From Treponema sp. (lineage in GTDB: Bacteria; Spirochaetota; Spirochaetia; Treponematales; Breznakiellaceae): DNA of 64,000 nt. The stretch spans positions 1,772 through 65,771 of the forward strand of contig JAITEL010000105.1 in the NCBI GenBank assembly GCA_031282065.1. The letters run 5' to 3'. The notes below the pieces were generated by a model that worked only from the letters and a program-made list of their open reading frames with translations, did not search any database and was not told the origin of the DNA. Positions 9,656 to 62,013 of this stretch are shown here, in pieces. How positions within the stretch are numbered: position 1 is the first letter of the stretch; each line of letters starts with the position of its first letter. The position numbers and the translations under genes are program-made.

Positions 9656-10372
9656 ATGATCGATTACTATGTAAAGCGCAGCGGACTAGAGGGTACAGAA
9701 AACCAGACCTGCCATGCGGTGGTTACCCATACCGAAGGGCTTAGCCAGGAGAACTTCATCAAAATGCTCAGGGAAGTGCTGAACATCAACGAGGGAGAGG
9801 CCAAACGGGTCATAGCAGGCATAGGGACCGCTGCCCGGAACCTCCTGTCCCAGGGCTGGAGCTTCAAGATAGAAGGCATAGGCTCCTTCAGCCTGAGCAT
9901 CACCGGCTCCTTCCCCAGCCCGGACGCTCCCTTTAATGCGGCCACGAACAAAATTGCCGTGCGCTTCCTGGCGGACAAGGAACTCACCGCGGCGGCGCAA
10001 AGCGCGGGCCTGAACCGGCTGCACGGGGTCGAACACGGTCCTGTCATTGATAATGTGGAAGACAAGGCCAGCGCCGCGATAAACGCCAAGCTCACCCCCG
10101 GACACGGAGTCCTGATAAGCGGCAAAGACATCAAGATAAGCGGCACCGACAGTACCGTAGGCATACACCTTATAGACGAATCAGGGAATGCCCTTACGGT
10201 GCCCTCCGGGGACATCCTGGAAAACGGCCCGACCAAACTGCTGTTCATCTGCCCTTCTTTGAGTCCGGGGGTCTATACGATACAAATAAGCACCCAATAT
10301 GCCGGAAGCAAGGAACTGGCCCACCCCCGCTCATACCTTTTTAACGCCCCTTTAACGGTAAGCGCCCCCTAG
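9656..10372 (+). CDS. HU-like DNA-binding domain protein with C-terminal Ig-like region (possibly DUF4469-type)
   Basis: aaaaggag RBS upstream of ATG 9656. The N-terminus resembles the HU/IHF fold pattern: ENFIKMLREVLNINEGEAKRVIAGIGTAARNLLSQGWSFKIEGIGSF. The family name is from memory and was not searched. Confidence 0.55.
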   Translation: MIDYYVKRSGLEGTENQTCHAVVTHTEGLSQENFIKMLREVLNINEGEAKRVIAGIGTAARNLLSQGWSFKIEGIGSFSLSITGSFPSPDAPFNAATNKIAVRFLADKELTAAAQSAGLNRLHGVEHGPVIDNVEDKASAAINAKLTPGHGVLISGKDIKISGTDSTVGIHLIDESGNALTVPSGDILENGPTKLLFICPSLSPGVYTIQISTQYAGSKELAHPRSYLFNAPLTVSAP

Positions 10373-10485
10373 TTAAGGCAAGGCTCTTGTCCTGGTTAAG
10401 ACAAGGCTCTTGTCCTAGTTAAGACAAGGTGCTTGTCCTAGTTAAGGCAAGGCTCTTGTCCCAGTTAAGGCAAGGCTCTTGTCCC
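10371..10485. repeat. 23-bp tandem repeat x5, each unit containing a GACAAG-GCT-CTTGTC type palindrome
   Basis: Units at 10371, 10394, 10417, 10440 and 10463 (agttaaggcaaggctcttgtccc and variants). The array starts inside the stop codon of the upstream gene. Confidence 0.95.
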
Positions 10486-20339: not shown

Positions 20340-20420
20340 TCTCCGTCGCGGCAGGACGTAACGCTCCGTCGCGACAAGACGTAACGCTCCGTCGCGGCAG
20401 GACGTAACGCTCCGTCGCAC
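20340..20420. repeat. 23-bp tandem repeat, about 3.5 copies
   Basis: tctccgtcgcggcaggacgtaac / gctccgtcgcgacaagacgtaac / gctccgtcgcggcaggacgtaac / gctccgtcgcac. Confidence 0.9.
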
Positions 20421-30551: not shown

Positions 30552-30795
30552 TAAAGGTTTTACCGGCCCCCCGCAAAGTTCTACCGGTACCCAAAAATAT
30601 TTTACAGGTACCCTAAAAAGTTTTATCGGTACCCCAAAAAGTTTTACAGGTACCCTGCAAATTTCTATAGGCCCCCCATAAAGTTTTATCGGTACCCAAA
30701 AATATTTTACCGGCTCCCCACAAAGTTCTACCGGTACCCCTGAAACTTTTATCGGCCCCCCAAAAAGATTTTAAGCCGGCTAAAAAAGGCTTTGA
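30552..30795. repeat. about 21-22-bp tandem repeat, about 11 copies, with phased A/T tracts
   Basis: Units are of the type aaaaagttttaYcggtacccc. Each has an A/T tract of about 10 bp and a GC-rich half containing accggt/ggtacc palindromes. Confidence 0.9.
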
Positions 30796-48661: not shown

Positions 48662-49876
48662 TTACTTCGCGGGTGTCGCAATCAGCGTGTCGCTCGTGCC
48701 GCCGTCATAGCGGTCGTCTTCGTTATTACTAAAGGGCACAATCTTGCTGCCGCTGGTCTGGGATACGCCGCCTTTGGTATACGTACCGCCGGTGCCCCAA
48801 TTTGCCGCCGTGGCGTTATCATTCACATGCAGCGCCGCGTAACCACTCCTCACAATGTTGACAAGGCTTTGATCCGCGCCGTCGGGAAGACCGTAGACAT
48901 CGCCGTAAATCGTTCCGCCTTTCAGGGTGAACATGCTCTCTTCGCCGATGTCCACGCCGCCGCCGTTACCGCCGCGGCCGCCTTTTACGGTGTTACCCGA
49001 AATCACGCCGTCTTCCATGGTGAACGTGCCTCTCCACACGCCCACGCCGCCGCCTTCGGACCAATCGTCGCTTTCAGCGGTATTCCCGTAAATCACGCCG
49101 CCTTGCATGATGAACGTGCCGTCTTGCTCCACCCGTACGCCGCCGCCGCCTGAGCCGCGTCTACCCTTTGCGGTGTTCCCGGAAATCACGCCGTCTTCCA
49201 TGGTGAACGTGCCTCCTTCGTTCACCCTCACGCCGCCGGCCCCGGCCCAATTGTTATTCTCCTCGCTGCCAATACGGATGTGGGTGTTACCCGTAATCTT
49301 GCCGCTTTTCATGATAAAGTGGCCGGTTCTTCCATCACCGCCGCTCCGCGCGACTACCAATGGGTCGTTGTTGTCCGCCACCCCTACCAGCGTAACGCCC
49401 TCAAGGGTGAGTGTCCGGTTAGGGTTATCATTATTTACAGCCTGGACTACGAGGAGGTGCCCCGTGCCCTTCAGTTGGATGGTCCCGCTTCCCTTGATGG
49501 TCGCCTCACTTGCATCGCCTGCCAGTCGGACTCGCTCAGGCCCCGCGTTCACCGTGCCGTTCACGGTCAATGTCGCGTCGCGCAGCGTGAGCTCCGCGCC
49601 ATCTGCCGTCACCTCAAGCGTAACGCCCGCGGGTACGGTGAGATTGCCTGCGCTCGGTACGACGGCTTTGCCTACGAGCGTTACCGTGGCGTCGTCCACC
49701 GTCGCGATCTCATCTCCCTCTTCGAAGGCGTTGATGTCCGCCGCCAACTGCTGGGCAGCCTGCGGATCCTCCTGCTTTGCGCCGCCACCATCAGCCGCGT
49801 CAGTCGGACAGCCCGCCAGAACCAGACCCAATATCAGCAGAAGCGCCGGCAAGCCAAATATCCTGTTTTTCTTCAT
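48662..49876 (-). CDS. surface lipoprotein with Pmp-like beta-helix repeats
   Basis: AAGGAG RBS upstream of ATG 49876. Lipobox LVLAGC. Repeats GGTFTMEDGVISGNTAKG..GGGGVRV. The tracked 495-aa ORF extends upstream through non-coding palindromic repeats. Confidence 0.75.
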   Translation of the reverse strand: MKKNRIFGLPALLLILGLVLAGCPTDAADGGGAKQEDPQAAQQLAADINAFEEGDEIATVDDATVTLVGKAVVPSAGNLTVPAGVTLEVTADGAELTLRDATLTVNGTVNAGPERVRLAGDASEATIKGSGTIQLKGTGHLLVVQAVNNDNPNRTLTLEGVTLVGVADNNDPLVVARSGGDGRTGHFIMKSGKITGNTHIRIGSEENNNWAGAGGVRVNEGGTFTMEDGVISGNTAKGRRGSGGGGVRVEQDGTFIMQGGVIYGNTAESDDWSEGGGVGVWRGTFTMEDGVISGNTVKGGRGGNGGGVDIGEESMFTLKGGTIYGDVYGLPDGADQSLVNIVRSGYAALHVNDNATAANWGTGGTYTKGGVSQTSGSKIVPFSNNEDDRYDGGTSDTLIATPAK

Positions 49877-49946: not shown

Positions 49947-50394
49947 TTATGGAATGACGGCCGAAGCGACCGGCCCCCCCCATTGTCCGGCCTCGCCCCG
50001 CCGGTTCTCGTAGCGGCAGCACACGTAGGCCGTCTTGCCCGCGTCCTCCGCGTCAAACAAACCGTAGGTTTGTAGCAAACTCCGAATGCCAGCGCTACGC
50101 GCTGGCAGGATTGCTTCGGGCTTCGCCCTCGCAATGACGACTTTCCCACAACGCCCCCTCGTCATTGCGAGCACAACGCAAAGCGTTGCCCCGAAGCAAT
50201 CCACGATTACGGAATCACCGCCGAAGCCACCGGCCCCCACTGGCCCCGCAATGACGACCTTTCCGCTACGCCCCTCGTCCTATCCCCGCTCTGGGCTATG
50301 AGACTACCACTTTCCTCGCAATGACGCCCTTCCCTCAACGCCTCCCTCGTCATTGCGAGCACAACGCAAAGCATTGCCCCGAAGCAATCCACGA
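49947..50394. repeat. duplicated 3' gene fragments interleaved with nested palindromic (REP/MITE-like) elements
   Basis: The 3' end of the 50395-51117 gene recurs at 49947 (about 115 bp, diverged) and at 50207 (about 38 bp). A 95-nt nested palindrome lies at 50108-50202, with partial copies at about 50245-50285 and about 50313-50392. Confidence 0.85.
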
Positions 50395-51117
50395 TTACGG
50401 AATCACCGCGCTCGCTACCGGCCCCCACTGGCCGGCCTCGCCCTTGCGGTTCTCGTAGCGGCAGCATACGTAGGCCGTCATGCCCGCGTCCTCCGCATCA
50501 AACAGCAGCTTCTCCTTACGCCGCCGGGTAAACCGGTAGTGCGAAAGGCCCTTCCCGTCCGCGGGAACCTTCATCAGGTAGTGCTTGTCCGACGCCGCCT
50601 GTTCCAGGGTGGCTCCTCCGGGAGGCATGATGCCCAGATAGACCACATAGCCGTAGTCGCTTTCGGGAGCCAGCTCCAGAGTTCCCGCCAGGGGTCCCAG
50701 ATGGAGCGTCATGGCGTGGGGCCCGCCGGGGTAGCTCAAAGACGCCGCAGGCACACCGTCGGGGGCGGGAGCGGGCGAGGGGTGGGTGTCCTTGGGGCGG
50801 AAGCCCAGAGCGGCCCAGTCTCCTTCGGTAAGGGGCGGTATCTTGAAGTACCGGTCCCGGAAGAACCGCATCTTTGCCTCCAGCGCCTTAAACGCCTCCT
50901 GGCACTCCACGGTAATGACGCGGGTCCGCTCCGCATCGTTTTGCGCCTTCTGGAGCAGGTCTTGCGCCGTGGAACACAGGCTCTCCAGTTCCGTAAACTC
51001 CGCCTCGGGCACTCCCCAGGCGGTCCGCCTTGCCGCCGTCAGGTACAGAATCCAGCTCAGACACATTGCCAGGATTCCCGTCCGGGGTCCCGGCATCCAA
51101 TCGGTGTTTTTTGCCAT
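50395..51117 (-). CDS. hypothetical protein, 240 aa
   Basis: GAGGAG RBS upstream of ATG 51117. No motif recognised. The C-terminal half looks beta-rich and ends in VCCRYENRKGEAGQWGPVASAVIP. Confidence 0.6.
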   Translation of the reverse strand: MAKNTDWMPGPRTGILAMCLSWILYLTAARRTAWGVPEAEFTELESLCSTAQDLLQKAQNDAERTRVITVECQEAFKALEAKMRFFRDRYFKIPPLTEGDWAALGFRPKDTHPSPAPAPDGVPAASLSYPGGPHAMTLHLGPLAGTLELAPESDYGYVVYLGIMPPGGATLEQAASDKHYLMKVPADGKGLSHYRFTRRRKEKLLFDAEDAGMTAYVCCRYENRKGEAGQWGPVASAVIP

Positions 51118-51139
51118 AGCGTTCTCCTCTCTATATGGA

Positions 51140-51167
51140 AACGAATATTTCATTCGTTAAAACGAAT
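51140..51167. promoter_or_regulatory. palindrome AACGAAT-ATTTC-ATTCGTT plus a third AACGAAT half-site upstream of the 240-aa gene
   Basis: Read directly at 51140-51158 and 51161-51167, 23-50 nt upstream of ATG 51117. Confidence 0.3.
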
Positions 51168-51195
51168 GACCTAAACGGTGAAAGGGCTGAGTCAA

Positions 51196-51447
51196 AAGTT
51201 GAAACTTCTGACCCGGAAATTGAAACTAATGACTTGGGATTTGAAAATTCTGACTCAGAAATTGAAAATCCTGACCTGGGATTTGAAACTAATGACTTGG
51301 GATTTGAAAATTCTGACTCAGAAATTGAAAATCCTGAGCCGGGATTTGAAACTTTTGAGCCGGGATTTGAAAATTCTGACTCAGAAGTTGAAAATCCTGA
51401 CCTGAGATTTGAAAATCCTGACTTAAAAATTATAAGGGCTGACCTGT
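51196..51447. repeat. 21-bp tandem repeat, about 12 copies, core TTGAAAAYYCTGAC
   Basis: Exact 21-bp register from 51196, e.g. gatttgaaaattctgactcag / aaattgaaaatcctgacctgg / gatttgaaactaatgacttgg. Confidence 0.95.
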
Positions 51448-51542
51448 CCGGTACACCGAATGAGTAGCTTTGACCTAGTTTTGGGGGATTGGGATCAAGC
51501 TGCGGTTTGTCCGCATACAAAAGCGGGGAATCAGTTAGGTAC

Positions 51543-51573
51543 TTGACACACCGTCTTCTTAATAGAATATAAT
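51543..51573 (+). promoter_or_regulatory. consensus sigma70-type hexamers TTGACA and TATAAT with a 19-bp spacer
   Basis: TTGACA at 51543-51548 and TATAAT at 51568-51573. The spacer is longer than the 17-bp optimum. Confidence 0.35.
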
Positions 51574-51636
51574 CGTGAGCCGTGAGCCGTGAGCCGTGAG
51601 CCGTGAGCCGTGAGCCGTGAGCCGTGAGCCGTGAGC
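51574..51636. repeat. (CGTGAGC)9 heptanucleotide microsatellite
   Basis: Nine perfect copies, counted directly, starting immediately after the TATAAT hexamer. Confidence 0.95.
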
Positions 51637-51795
51637 CGGAGGGCCTGTTCTGTCTTGTTACCTGCCGGTTTCAAAAGCATGAAAGTATTCTAAATACTTA
51701 CATAAAGAATGTCAAGCAAAAAATACTTCCTTTCCTTATCACTAGCCTCAAGTCCCCCCGGAATTTTGTCCAGACCATCGTGTTCTAGAAGCAAA

Positions 51796-61750: not shown

Positions 61751-61824
61751 ATGTTTCTCCTCTTGCTATGACCTTAGCACCAAGGGACATGAGGGTCAAG
61801 GGAAGCGGGAACTCCTCCGGGGAT

Positions 61825-62013
61825 GGGTGTGGAACTTTCAAGTCCGGGTGTGGAACTTTCAAATTTGGGTGTGAAACTTCCAAATTTGGGTATGAAACTT
61901 CCAAACCTGGGTGCGGAACTTCCAAACCTGGGTGTGAAACTTCCAAATCCGGGTGTGGAACTTTCAAATTTGGGTATGGAACTTTCAAACCCGGGTGTGG
62001 AACTTCCGGGGAC
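61825..62013. repeat. 21-bp tandem repeat x9 upstream of gltD
   Basis: Exact 21-bp register from 61825: gggtgtggaactttcaagtcc / gggtgtggaactttcaaattt / gggtgtgaaacttccaaattt and so on. Degenerate copies flank it on both sides. Confidence 0.95.

What the first reader, a model, noticed from the sequence alone, without database searches (positions are those of the whole stretch)
51140..51447. Twelve-copy 21-bp array with a TTGAAA core, next to a palindromic operator-like site
An exact 21-bp register runs from 51196 to about 51447, with units such as gatTTGAAAATTCTGACtcag, aaaTTGAAAATCCTGACctgg and gatTTGAAACTAATGACttgg. It lies upstream of the 240-aa gene (ATG 51117, minus strand). It ends about 96 bp before the plus-strand TTGACA/TATAAT promoter at 51543. 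Between the array and the gene is AACGAAT-ATTTC-ATTCGTT plus a third AACGAAT half-site. Several reading frames stay open through the array only because the unit length is a multiple of three and the unit lacks stop codons. The resulting peptides are low-complexity heptads. The TTGAAA core resembles a reiterated -35 hexamer or a repeated transcription-factor half-site.
Basis: seen in the sequence. Interest (0 to 1): 0.6.

Follow-up and report, generated by a model that had tools for sequence, protein, structure and literature searches.

The report
Gene-linked 21-bp repeat array in Treponema
The 21-base repeat is real and non-coding, and it is one copy of a conserved pairing: in termite-gut Treponema a large family of unstudied ~230-residue proteins almost always has its own 21-base tandem array directly in front of the gene, and the purpose of that pairing is still unknown.

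Summary
The array is real. Sixteen units stand in one unbroken 21-bp register (51132-51467), from the ribosome-binding site of the 240-aa gene to a conserved TTGAC box. Twelve of them are well formed.

It is not coding. The positions that would be third codon positions of the only two frames that stay open are the most conserved. The ATG of the 110-aa ORF is private to this copy. Some relatives have no open frame.

Each unit is an imperfect 20-bp dyad.

The array is not unique. This genome holds about 10 copies of the cassette. It also holds 104 arrays of 21 bp and 72 of 23 bp.

The new point is a gene link. The 240-aa protein belongs to a Pfam-less superfamily with about 27 members here, found in 97 of 201 related genomes. 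Eighteen of 25 assessable members carry a 21-bp array upstream (odds ratio 60); two more carry 20- or 42-bp arrays. None carries a 23-bp array. Unit sequences differ between members, but the period does not. Thirteen of 20 distant members in 17 other genomes show the same arrangement.

Function is inferred. Most likely this is a cis-acting DNA element of phased dyad sites. The rivals are a hitch-hiking minisatellite and an RNA partner of the protein.

The parts
51132..51467 (.). Whole array: 16 units in one unbroken 21-bp register. Units 1-3 and unit 16 are degenerate.
   Evidence: The same layout holds in all 8 paralogous loci of the genome: 12-17 units, with the first unit starting 14 nt after the ATG.
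51195..51446 (.). The 12 well-formed units. They show a 63-bp (three-unit) higher-order repeat. Consensus: AAA GTT GAA ACT AAT GAC TCA, an imperfect 9+2+9 dyad plus 1 nt.
51150..51169 (.). Best-preserved unit, a perfect 9-bp-arm palindrome TCATTCGTT-AA-AACGAATGA, 33 nt from the ATG.
   Evidence: Palindromes of about 18-22 bp in the same place, with different sequences, are seen in about 20 of 42 related loci.
50395..51117 (-). 240-aa gene. N-terminal helical domain plus C-terminal FN3-like sandwich. Member of a Pfam-less superfamily. Ribosome-binding site at 51124-51129.
51470..51498 (+). Conserved TTGACC-17-GATCAA box that abuts the far end of the array. It looks like a weak + strand promoter.
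   Evidence: The TTGAC box is conserved in all 8 paralogues and sits an integer number of units from the ribosome-binding site.
51543..51573 (+). TTGACA-19 nt-TATAAT promoter-like element.
   Evidence: Both hexamers are conserved across species while the spacer sequence varies.
51574..51638 (.). (CGTGAGC)x9 heptamer tract. Copy number differs among paralogues: 1, 9, about 11, and at least 17.
51678..51715 (-). Gene-strand promoter TTGACA-17-TAGAAT, followed after 6 nt by the ATG (51680) of a short ORF, MLLKPAGNKT... This is the inferred start of a long leader that would run through the array.
   Evidence: The geometry is conserved in at least 9 loci, some with different hexamers.
49947..51745 (.). 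Extent of the repeated cassette of about 1.8 kb: duplicated gene 3' ends, the gene, the array, the conserved box, the heptamers and the right-hand segment.
   Evidence: About 10 copies in the genome, many of them at contig ends.

Best explanation
The array is a non-coding tandem repeat. It is the standing upstream companion of one gene family.

In termite-gut Treponema, members of an uncharacterised superfamily of about 215-250-aa proteins (helical N-domain plus FN3-like C-domain) each carry their own array directly in front of the gene. The arrays have 5-20 units of 21 bp (occasionally 42 bp). The window holds one such module.

Each unit is an imperfect 20-bp dyad. The unit nearest the ribosome-binding site is the best preserved. 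Arrays change by gain and loss of whole units, here in 63-bp blocks, so the 21-bp register (two turns of the DNA helix) is kept.

Most likely mechanism (inferred, not shown): the array acts in cis at the DNA level. It would be a row of dyad sites all lying on one face of the helix. It could serve as a loading platform for a dimeric factor, or as an expandable spacer that keeps helical phase. Either way it would set expression of the adjacent gene and perhaps of the outward-facing promoters next to it. Unit number would be the tunable quantity.

Shown here: the anatomy, the non-coding nature, the multicopy cassette, and the link between the gene family and the array.

Inferred: any regulatory role, the DNA level of action, and the identity of any binding factor.
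For: Non-coding:
- In 105 units from the 8 own loci, unit positions 3, 6, 9, 12, 15, 18 and 21 are the most conserved. These are the third codon positions of both frames that stay open in all 8 loci. They carry a mean of 1.31 bits, against 0.88 bits for first and second positions, and T6 and A9 are invariant.
- The codon at positions 7-9 reads GAA, TTA, GTA, ATA, AAA or ACA.
- The ATG of the 110-aa ORF exists only in this copy.
- Nine of 35 family arrays have no open frame on the window's + strand, three have none on the gene strand, and C27 has none on the gene strand.

Dyad units:
- Core pairs 4-11, 5-10 and 6-9 are Watson-Crick in 71%, 79% and 93% of 219 distinct units.
- There are double (compensatory) changes, TA to CG and GC to TA.
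- Proximal palindromes of different sequence sit at the same place in about 20 of 42 loci.

Module:
- 8-10 cassette copies in the genome.
- A 21-bp periodicity upstream of nearly all 34 homologous loci in other species.
- 27 superfamily members in the genome. Of 25 assessable, 18 have a 21-bp array, one a 20-bp array and one a 42-bp array. None has a 23-bp array.
- Fisher odds ratio 60, p = 2e-19.
- With gene remnants counted, 27 of 104 21-bp arrays, 2 of 2 42-bp arrays and 1 of 2 20-bp arrays have a family gene or remnant within 1 kb. This holds for 0 of 72 23-bp, 0 of 17 24-bp and 0 of 4 22-bp arrays.
- 13 of 20 distant members in 17 other genomes have a 21- or 42-bp array 20-112 nt upstream.

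DNA level:
- In several distant paralogues a good sigma-70-type promoter lies between the array and the gene (C65, C90 and C133 by eye; 6 of 24 loci by scan against 1.8 expected). There the array is not in the gene's mRNA.

Unit turnover:
- Near-identical paralogues C74, C135 and C125 have 16, 13 and 12 units.
Against: The encoded protein shows no recognisable DNA-binding fold, and no other candidate binder is known.

Every paralogue has its own unit sequence. A single trans-acting sequence-specific factor is therefore unlikely.

Dyad symmetry is enriched but not universal. Arms of at least 5 bp occur in 37% of family arrays against 10% of shuffles.

The same genome holds about 75 further 21-bp arrays and 72 23-bp arrays with no family gene nearby. 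Arrays of this kind can therefore exist without the gene.

The enrichment statistics ignore common descent of the paralogues. A 21-bp period could be inherited rather than selected.

In the window's own subfamily no promoter is seen between the array and the gene. The only conserved gene-strand promoter lies upstream of the array. Here the array may be transcribed.
Confidence: 0.55

Rival explanations
1. Hitch-hiking minisatellite with no function. The lineage has a strong tendency to build 21- and 23-bp tandem arrays. One such array arose early next to the ancestral gene. It has since been copied along with the gene and keeps its period only by descent.
For: The genome holds 104 arrays of 21 bp and 72 of 23 bp. 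About three quarters of the 21-bp arrays have no family gene within 1 kb. Units diverge freely. Arrays are absent or minimal in L024, L026 and L046 and in 5-6 own members. Some orphan arrays are decayed modules. Earlier agents reached this verdict for sister arrays.
Against: Arrays persist in front of members that share only 23-50% protein identity, and across genera, although tandem arrays are easily lost. The 8 own cassettes show strict absence of indels and an unbroken register from the ribosome-binding site to the TTGAC box. The dyad core shows compensatory changes. The best-kept unit always lies next to the ribosome-binding site.
Confidence: 0.25
2. RNA-level element. The array is transcribed with the gene. 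It acts either as a structured leader (a row of small stem-loops) or as a repeat RNA that is cut into units and partners with the protein. The second reading resembles type III toxin-antitoxin loci such as ToxIN.
For: A conserved gene-strand promoter lies upstream of the array in the window's subfamily and in C24. Both strands fold far better than shuffles, z = -5.4 and -7.1. The order repeat array then protein gene, with a private repeat sequence for each paralogue, matches type III toxin-antitoxin architecture (own knowledge).
Against: In several paralogues the promoter lies between the array and the gene. The hairpins next to the ribosome-binding site lack U-tails, so there is no terminator of the ToxIN type. 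Wobble pairs show no clear strand bias, 38 against 24. The protein matches no ToxN, CptN or TenpN model and no defence model. Units are 21 nt, not 34-45 nt.
Confidence: 0.15
3. The array encodes a heptad-repeat peptide. Either it is the 110-aa acidic ORF on the + strand (51135-51467), or it is a gene-strand upstream ORF switched on and off by the heptamer tract.
For: One frame on each strand stays open through the array in all 8 own loci. In 3 of 9 loci the short ORF MLLKPAGNKT... runs in frame through the heptamers and the array to the gene start.
Against: Third codon positions are the most conserved, and first and second positions vary freely. The ATG is private to this copy and has no ribosome-binding site in front of it. 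L020 has an in-frame TAA in its unit. Several arrays have no open frame. Three of 9 in frame is what chance gives. No family hit was found for either peptide.
Confidence: 0.03
4. A row of reiterated -35/-10-like hexamers (TTGAAA-17-GAAAAT) that fires or soaks up RNA polymerase on the + strand.
For: Seven phased 9-of-12 matches were found in this copy, against 0.8 expected.
Against: The hexamers are not kept in the paralogues, which carry TTTTAAC, TTGTAAC or TTATAAC units, nor in the GC-rich arrays of other species.
Confidence: 0.02

Closest known systems
Iteron arrays with an inverted-repeat operator in front of plasmid rep genes (pPS10, pSC101, R6K, F; own knowledge)
   Same: Direct repeats of about 17-22 bp lie immediately upstream of one gene. 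A palindrome built from the same sequence sits closest to the gene start. Each homologue has its own repeat sequence.
   Different: The protein has no Rep or winged-helix signature. There are 10-27 chromosomal copies per genome. No origin features were examined. Binding is untested.
BrickBuilt, the Porphyromonas gingivalis MITE with an internal 23-nt minisatellite (PMC4596501)
   Same: A spacer-less minisatellite of about 21-23 nt. It is multicopy and intergenic, is flanked by conserved leader and tail sequence, and carries promoter elements.
   Different: BrickBuilt carries no gene and has terminal inverted repeats. Here the array abuts the ribosome-binding site of a specific gene family, and each paralogue has a different unit.
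REP/REPIN elements with their cognate RAYT genes (own knowledge)
   Same: Short palindromic repeats occur in sequence families. Some copies sit next to a cognate gene and others are dispersed as orphans.
   Different: REPs are not strictly periodic head-to-tail arrays. The associated protein here is not a Y1 transposase, although the genome does hold nine Y1_Tnp ORFs elsewhere.
Type III toxin-antitoxin loci (ToxIN, CptIN, TenpIN; own knowledge)
   Same: A tandem nucleotide repeat lies directly upstream of a protein gene on the same strand. The repeat sequence is specific to each locus.
   Different: Units are 21 nt rather than 34-45 nt, and there are 5-20 copies rather than 2-6. There is no terminator between repeat and gene. 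The protein matches no known toxin family.
Period-locked 21/23-bp minisatellites of termite-gut Treponema
   Same: The same genomes and the same periods. Arrays are free of indels and rich in substitutions. Many units carry palindromes.
   Different: Those arrays were judged private and functionless. This one belongs to the 21-bp subset that is tied to a gene superfamily, a link those notes do not mention.

Membership tests
Protein-coding heptad repeat | Third codon positions vary most, and an open frame with a start codon is conserved in relatives | tested here: not met
   Third positions are the most conserved, 1.31 against 0.88 bits. The ATG is private to this copy. Several relatives have no open frame.
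CRISPR array | Repeats separated by unique spacers | tested here: not met
   Units are head to tail with no spacers.
Iteron / Rep module | Direct repeats of 17-22 bp immediately upstream of the gene, plus an inverted repeat of related sequence next to the gene start | tested here: met
Iteron / Rep module | The adjacent gene encodes a Rep initiator with winged-helix domains | tested here: not met
   No Pfam or NCBIfam hit. Structure searches found only an FN3-like domain and an unmatched helical bundle.
Type III toxin-antitoxin | Toxin of the ToxN, CptN or TenpN family | tested here: not met
   No Pfam or PADLOC hit.
Type III toxin-antitoxin | Promoter upstream of the repeats and an intrinsic terminator between the repeats and the gene | tested here: inconclusive
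   An upstream promoter is seen in the window's subfamily and in C24. In other paralogues the promoter lies between array and gene. The hairpins lack U-tails.
BrickBuilt-type MITE with minisatellite | Gene-free element with leader and tail ending in terminal inverted repeats | tested here: not met
   One side of the array abuts the ribosome-binding site of a gene. Orphan copies share only about 100 nt of leader. Terminal inverted repeats were not searched for systematically.
Simple-sequence contingency locus (phase variation) | Short unit of 1-9 nt whose number changes the reading frame or the promoter spacing | tested here: not met
   The unit is 21 bp and keeps both frame and helical phase. 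The neighbouring 7-bp tract does fit this definition.
Known RNA family (Rfam) | Match at or above the family's gathering score | tested here: not met
   Only sub-threshold microRNA-like hits, caused by the hairpin-like repeats.
Array-plus-gene module of the Treponema ~230-aa superfamily (defined here) | Tandem array of 21 bp (or 42 bp) within about 150 nt upstream of a superfamily member | tested here: met

The most novel reading that the evidence does not exclude
The 21-bp arrays and the ~230-aa proteins form cognate pairs. Each paralogue's protein would recognise its own array, as DNA or as RNA, much as Rep recognises iterons, a RAYT recognises its REPs, or ToxN recognises ToxI. Orphan arrays with the same unit would be decayed or non-autonomous copies. 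That would make this an undescribed repeat-plus-protein system, and it would explain the 21-bp half of the period-locked minisatellites of termite-gut Treponema.
Probability: 0.2. Interest if true: 0.85.

Novelty: new variant of a known kind. Interest (0 to 1): 0.62.

Why it matters
Earlier looks at these Treponema genomes treated the many 21- and 23-bp arrays as private, functionless minisatellites with an unexplained length rule.

This array shows that the 21-bp class, and only that class, is tied to one large unstudied protein superfamily. The superfamily has thousands of sequence clusters and up to a dozen or more copies per genome. That gives the puzzle a concrete handle:
- a candidate partner protein;
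- a defined module that can be moved into a reporter;
- a cultured carrier, Treponema sp. TIM-1, locus L042.

If the array tunes expression through unit number, it would be a form of repeat-mediated control that preserves helical phase. If the protein reads its own array, it would be a new repeat-plus-protein system.

Tried and rejected
Tools and searches that gave nothing:
- Two exact-pattern scans of metagenome contigs with the conserved box next to the array found nothing.
- Exact look-up of the 240-aa protein found nothing.
- As a result, copy number across strains could not be compared. Only the near-identical paralogues could be compared, with 16, 13 and 12 units.
- Two literature searches returned no paper.
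- Rfam gave only sub-threshold microRNA look-alikes.
- Pfam, NCBIfam, PHROGs and PADLOC found nothing for the gene or for the array ORFs.

Structure:
- The whole protein matches only FN3-like domains.
- The N-terminal domain alone matches nothing significant.

Ideas tested and dropped:
- A periodic promoter on the gene strand inside the units. The hexamers do not line up at a 21-bp period (read by eye).
- An intrinsic terminator between the array and the gene. There are no U-tails.
- A conserved downstream partner gene. None was found.
- Wobble-pair strand bias as a way to tell RNA from DNA constraint. The result, 38 against 24, is inconclusive.
- An integer-unit register in other species measured from a TTGAC box. 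The box could not be located reliably outside the own genome.
- A cluster annotated as a methyl-accepting chemotaxis protein turned out to be a read-through or fusion with a genuine chemotaxis gene, not an array-encoded coiled coil.

Full report
**Observation**

The repeat is real. Tandem Repeats Finder reports a 21-bp period at 51199-51422 with 10.7 copies, 73% matches and no indels. It also reports a 63-bp higher-order period with 88% matches. Laid out in register, 12 well-formed units occupy 51195-51446. The same register continues through three degenerate units towards the gene (51132-51194) and one on the far side (51447-51467).

In all, 16 units fill the space between two landmarks. One is the ribosome-binding site of the 240-aa gene (ATG at 51117, minus strand). 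The other is a conserved TTGACC box at 51470. The array is AT-rich: 37% G+C against 54% for the window.

It is units 1-2 of the array, not a separate site. It contains a perfect palindrome with 9-bp arms, TCATTCGTT-AA-AACGAATGA, at 51150-51169. The + strand TTGACA (51543) and TATAAT (51568) hexamers exist but are 19 nt apart. The promoter scan did not list them.

**Not coding**

Three frames are open through this copy. Only one frame per strand stays open in all eight paralogous arrays of the genome. Those two frames share their third codon positions, which are unit positions 3, 6, 9, 12, 15, 18 and 21.

I pooled 105 units from the eight loci. The nine degenerate end units were excluded by a loose consensus filter, which biases slightly towards the consensus. 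In this pool the shared third positions are the most conserved, at a mean of 1.31 bits. First and second positions carry about 0.88 bits. T6 and A9 are invariant. The codon at positions 7-9 reads GAA, TTA, GTA, ATA, AAA or ACA. This is the opposite of what a translated repeat shows.

Further points against coding:
- The ATG of the 110-aa + strand ORF is private to this copy, and no ribosome-binding site precedes it.
- L020 has an in-frame TAA in its unit.
- Nine of 35 family arrays have no open frame on the window's + strand. Three have none on the gene strand, and C27 has none on the gene strand.
- Neither peptide matches any family.

**Unit anatomy**

The consensus unit is AAA GTT GAA ACT AAT GAC TCA. 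It is an imperfect 9+2+9 dyad (TCAAAAGTT-GA-AACTAATGA) plus one base. That is why the array reads alike on both strands.

In 219 distinct units from 22 loci, the core pairs 4-11, 5-10 and 6-9 are Watson-Crick in 71%, 79% and 93% of cases. Double changes occur: TA to CG 19 and 12 times, and GC to TA 16 times.

GC-rich arrays in other species keep a dyad of a different sequence. Examples are GGCGTTGTAACGCC, AAAGCCGTGGCTTT and GGATTTGCCTAAATCC. Arms of at least 5 bp occur in 37% of family arrays against 10% of shuffles.

A palindrome of about 18-22 bp begins 23-35 nt from the ATG in about 20 of 42 related loci. The sequences differ between loci. In several species the palindrome resembles that species' own array unit.

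**A multicopy cassette**

The genome has 2.65 Mb in 179 contigs. It holds eight full loci with the same layout and remnants of two more, many at contig ends. The cassette spans about 1.8 kb, window 49947-51745. Its order is:
1. duplicated gene 3' ends;
2. the gene;
3. the array;
4. the conserved box;
5. the TTGACA-19-TATAAT element;
6. a heptamer tract with 1, 9, about 11 or at least 17 copies;
7. a right-hand segment.

That right-hand segment carries a gene-strand promoter, TTGACA-17-TAGAAT, followed after 6 nt by ATG (51715..51678). The geometry is conserved in at least nine loci, some with different hexamers. In this subfamily the array is therefore probably part of a long leader. This is an inference.

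The short ORF that starts at that ATG runs in frame through the array in only 3 of 9 loci. That is the chance rate.

The near-identical paralogues C74, C135 and C125 carry 16, 13 and 12 units. Unit number therefore changes quickly.

**Across species**

The 240-aa protein has more than 336 close homologues. All are unnamed and come from termite-gut Treponema. Among 34 loci from other species, nearly all show strong lag-21 self-similarity within 700 bp upstream of the gene: 70-102 matches out of 105, against about 35 for lags 18, 20, 22 and 24. The exceptions are L024, L026 and L046. Unit sequences differ widely, from 29% to 66% G+C, but the period does not.

**Genome-wide context**

The genome holds 253 tandem arrays. 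Of these, 104 have a 21-bp period, 72 have 23 bp and 17 have 24 bp. No other period exceeds seven arrays. Earlier agents of this scan saw the same period lock in sister genomes and judged individual arrays to be private minisatellites.

**The new link**

A tblastn search showed that distant paralogues of the 240-aa protein in this genome (23-48% identity) also have an array upstream. Most of these arrays are 21 bp.

An iterated profile search found 27 members, some of them fragments. Of 25 assessable members:
- 18 have a 21-bp array within 700 nt upstream;
- one has a 20-bp array;
- one has a 42-bp array;
- none has a 23-bp array.

By comparison, 111 of about 2,304 genes face a 21-bp array. 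The odds ratio is 60 and p = 2e-19. This figure ignores the shared descent of the paralogues.

I then counted gene remnants as well. A family gene or remnant lies within 1 kb of 27 of 104 21-bp arrays, 2 of 2 42-bp arrays and 1 of 2 20-bp arrays. It lies near 0 of 72 23-bp, 0 of 17 24-bp and 0 of 4 22-bp arrays.

This superfamily is the largest cluster among genes whose start faces an array. Of 212 such genes, 165 are singletons.

I fetched twenty distant members (39-52% identity) from 17 other genomes. Thirteen have a 21- or 42-bp array 20-112 nt upstream, and none has a 23-bp array.

The family is found in 97 of 201 genomes of the taxonomic family, at 1 to at least 13 copies each. A profile search of 1.8 billion representatives found 5,789 clusters. 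The sampled ones are all from Treponema or Spirochaetaceae and are annotated as hypothetical. Gene callers have sometimes run ORFs into the arrays, producing stretches such as LEAFPQI... and LRADPRT....

**Orphan arrays**

The 103 arrays of 21 bp fall into 55 unit families. Forty-one arrays are in unit families that include a gene-linked copy.

The window's two other 21-bp arrays belong to such groups:
- The array at 61824-62007, upstream of gltD, shares its unit with the gene-linked array on C133.
- The array at 30553-30773 clusters with the C162 array. By eye, its unit also matches the 20-bp array in front of the C65 member.

Some orphan arrays keep about 100-120 nt of the leader of the gene-linked copy, or an eroded gene start.

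**The protein**

The AlphaFold2 model has a confident N-terminal helical bundle (residues 12-103) and an FN3-like sandwich (120-240). Searches against the PDB found only FN3 domains for the whole protein. The N-terminal domain alone matched nothing significant; the best E-value was 1.5. No Pfam, NCBIfam, PHROG or PADLOC family matches any member. No downstream gene is conserved.

**Mechanism**

The facts that bear on mechanism are these:
- In several distant paralogues a good promoter lies between the array and the gene, often abutting the last unit. By eye, TTTACA-17-TATAGT, TATGAT or TATACT is seen in C65, C90 and C133. By scan, 6 of 24 loci have a hit against 1.8 expected. There the array is not in the gene's mRNA.
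- In C24 and in the window's subfamily the promoter lies upstream of the array.
- Both strands of the array fold better than shuffles, z = -5.4 and -7.1. This is expected for dyad repeats.
- Hairpins near the ribosome-binding site lack U-tails, so they are not terminators.
- Wobble pairs show no clear strand bias.

A general role is therefore more easily placed at the DNA level. The array would be a row of dyad sites, one every two helical turns. Gain or loss of a unit changes distance but not helical face.

I rate this reading at about 0.55 overall. Within it, the descriptive parts are secure and the regulatory role is inferred. The rivals are a functionless hitch-hiking minisatellite (0.25), an RNA-level role that includes a type III toxin-antitoxin-like partnership (0.15), coding (0.03), and reiterated promoters (0.02).

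**Comparison with known systems**

The layout most resembles iterons plus an inverted-repeat operator in front of plasmid rep genes. However, the protein is not a Rep. It also recalls three other systems:
- BrickBuilt, the gene-free MITE of Porphyromonas gingivalis with a 23-nt minisatellite;
- REP elements with their cognate RAYT genes;
- type III toxin-antitoxin loci.

A defining feature of each was tested and not met, as listed in the membership table. I found no description of this array-plus-gene module. The earlier notes of this scan do not mention the gene link.

**Limits**

- There are no expression, binding or strain-level data.
- Gene calls in the own genome are crude ORF calls.
- The enrichment statistics treat paralogues as independent.
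- The promoter assignments are consensus matches only.

Noticed in passing
Whole genome (G000); in the window: 10368-10484, 20341-20418 (23 bp) and 30553-30773, 61824-62007 (21 bp): Tandem-array periods are sharply locked. There are 104 arrays of 21 bp, 72 of 23 bp and 17 of 24 bp among 253 arrays. Dyad symmetry is stronger in the 23-bp class (arms of at least 5 bp in 50% of units against 10% of shuffles). No 23-bp array lies near the ~230-aa gene superfamily, so the two period classes seem to be different things.
   Followed up: partly
Window 51574-51638, with paralogues on C59, C94, C125, C135 and C176: The heptamer tract (CGTGAGC or CTGAGCC) has 1, 9, about 11 or at least 17 copies among paralogues. 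It sits between two promoter-like elements that face each other: TTGACA-19-TATAAT on the + strand and TTGACA-17-TAGAAT-6 nt-ATG on the minus strand. The short ORF MLLKPAGNKT... that starts at that ATG is conserved across species. Its frame past the tract depends on the heptamer number. This looks like a phase-variable switch.
   Followed up: partly
Window 49947-50470, and C59, C94, C139: The last 100-130 bp of the 240-aa gene is repeated 2-7 times downstream of the gene. The copies are interleaved with palindromic elements of the type GTCATTGCGAG...CTCGCAATGAC, which are also dispersed in the genome.
   Followed up: partly
G000: C176:13935-14270, C110:8615-8890 and seven more: The genome has nine ORFs of about 150-175 aa that match Y1_Tnp (IS200/IS605 TnpA or RAYT-like). 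They are possible partners of the dispersed palindromic elements. No link to the arrays was examined.
   Followed up: no
Window 61824-62007 and 30553-30773: The window's two other 21-bp arrays share their unit with arrays that stand in front of superfamily genes on other contigs (C133, and C65 with C162). After the gltD array a TTGACC-17-TAAGGT element abuts the last unit. Similar array-then-promoter geometry is seen at C90, C133 and C39.
   Followed up: partly
P0274 / G077:C159 and C63: In one Treponema genome a superfamily domain is read in frame behind a genuine methyl-accepting chemotaxis protein (506-729 aa). This is either a real fusion or a read-through of two adjacent genes.
   Followed up: no
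Window 48662-49870 (minus strand): The lipoprotein with GNTA/GGGGV-type repeats directly downstream of the cassette is not part of the cassette. Other cassette copies have unrelated neighbours.
   Followed up: partly
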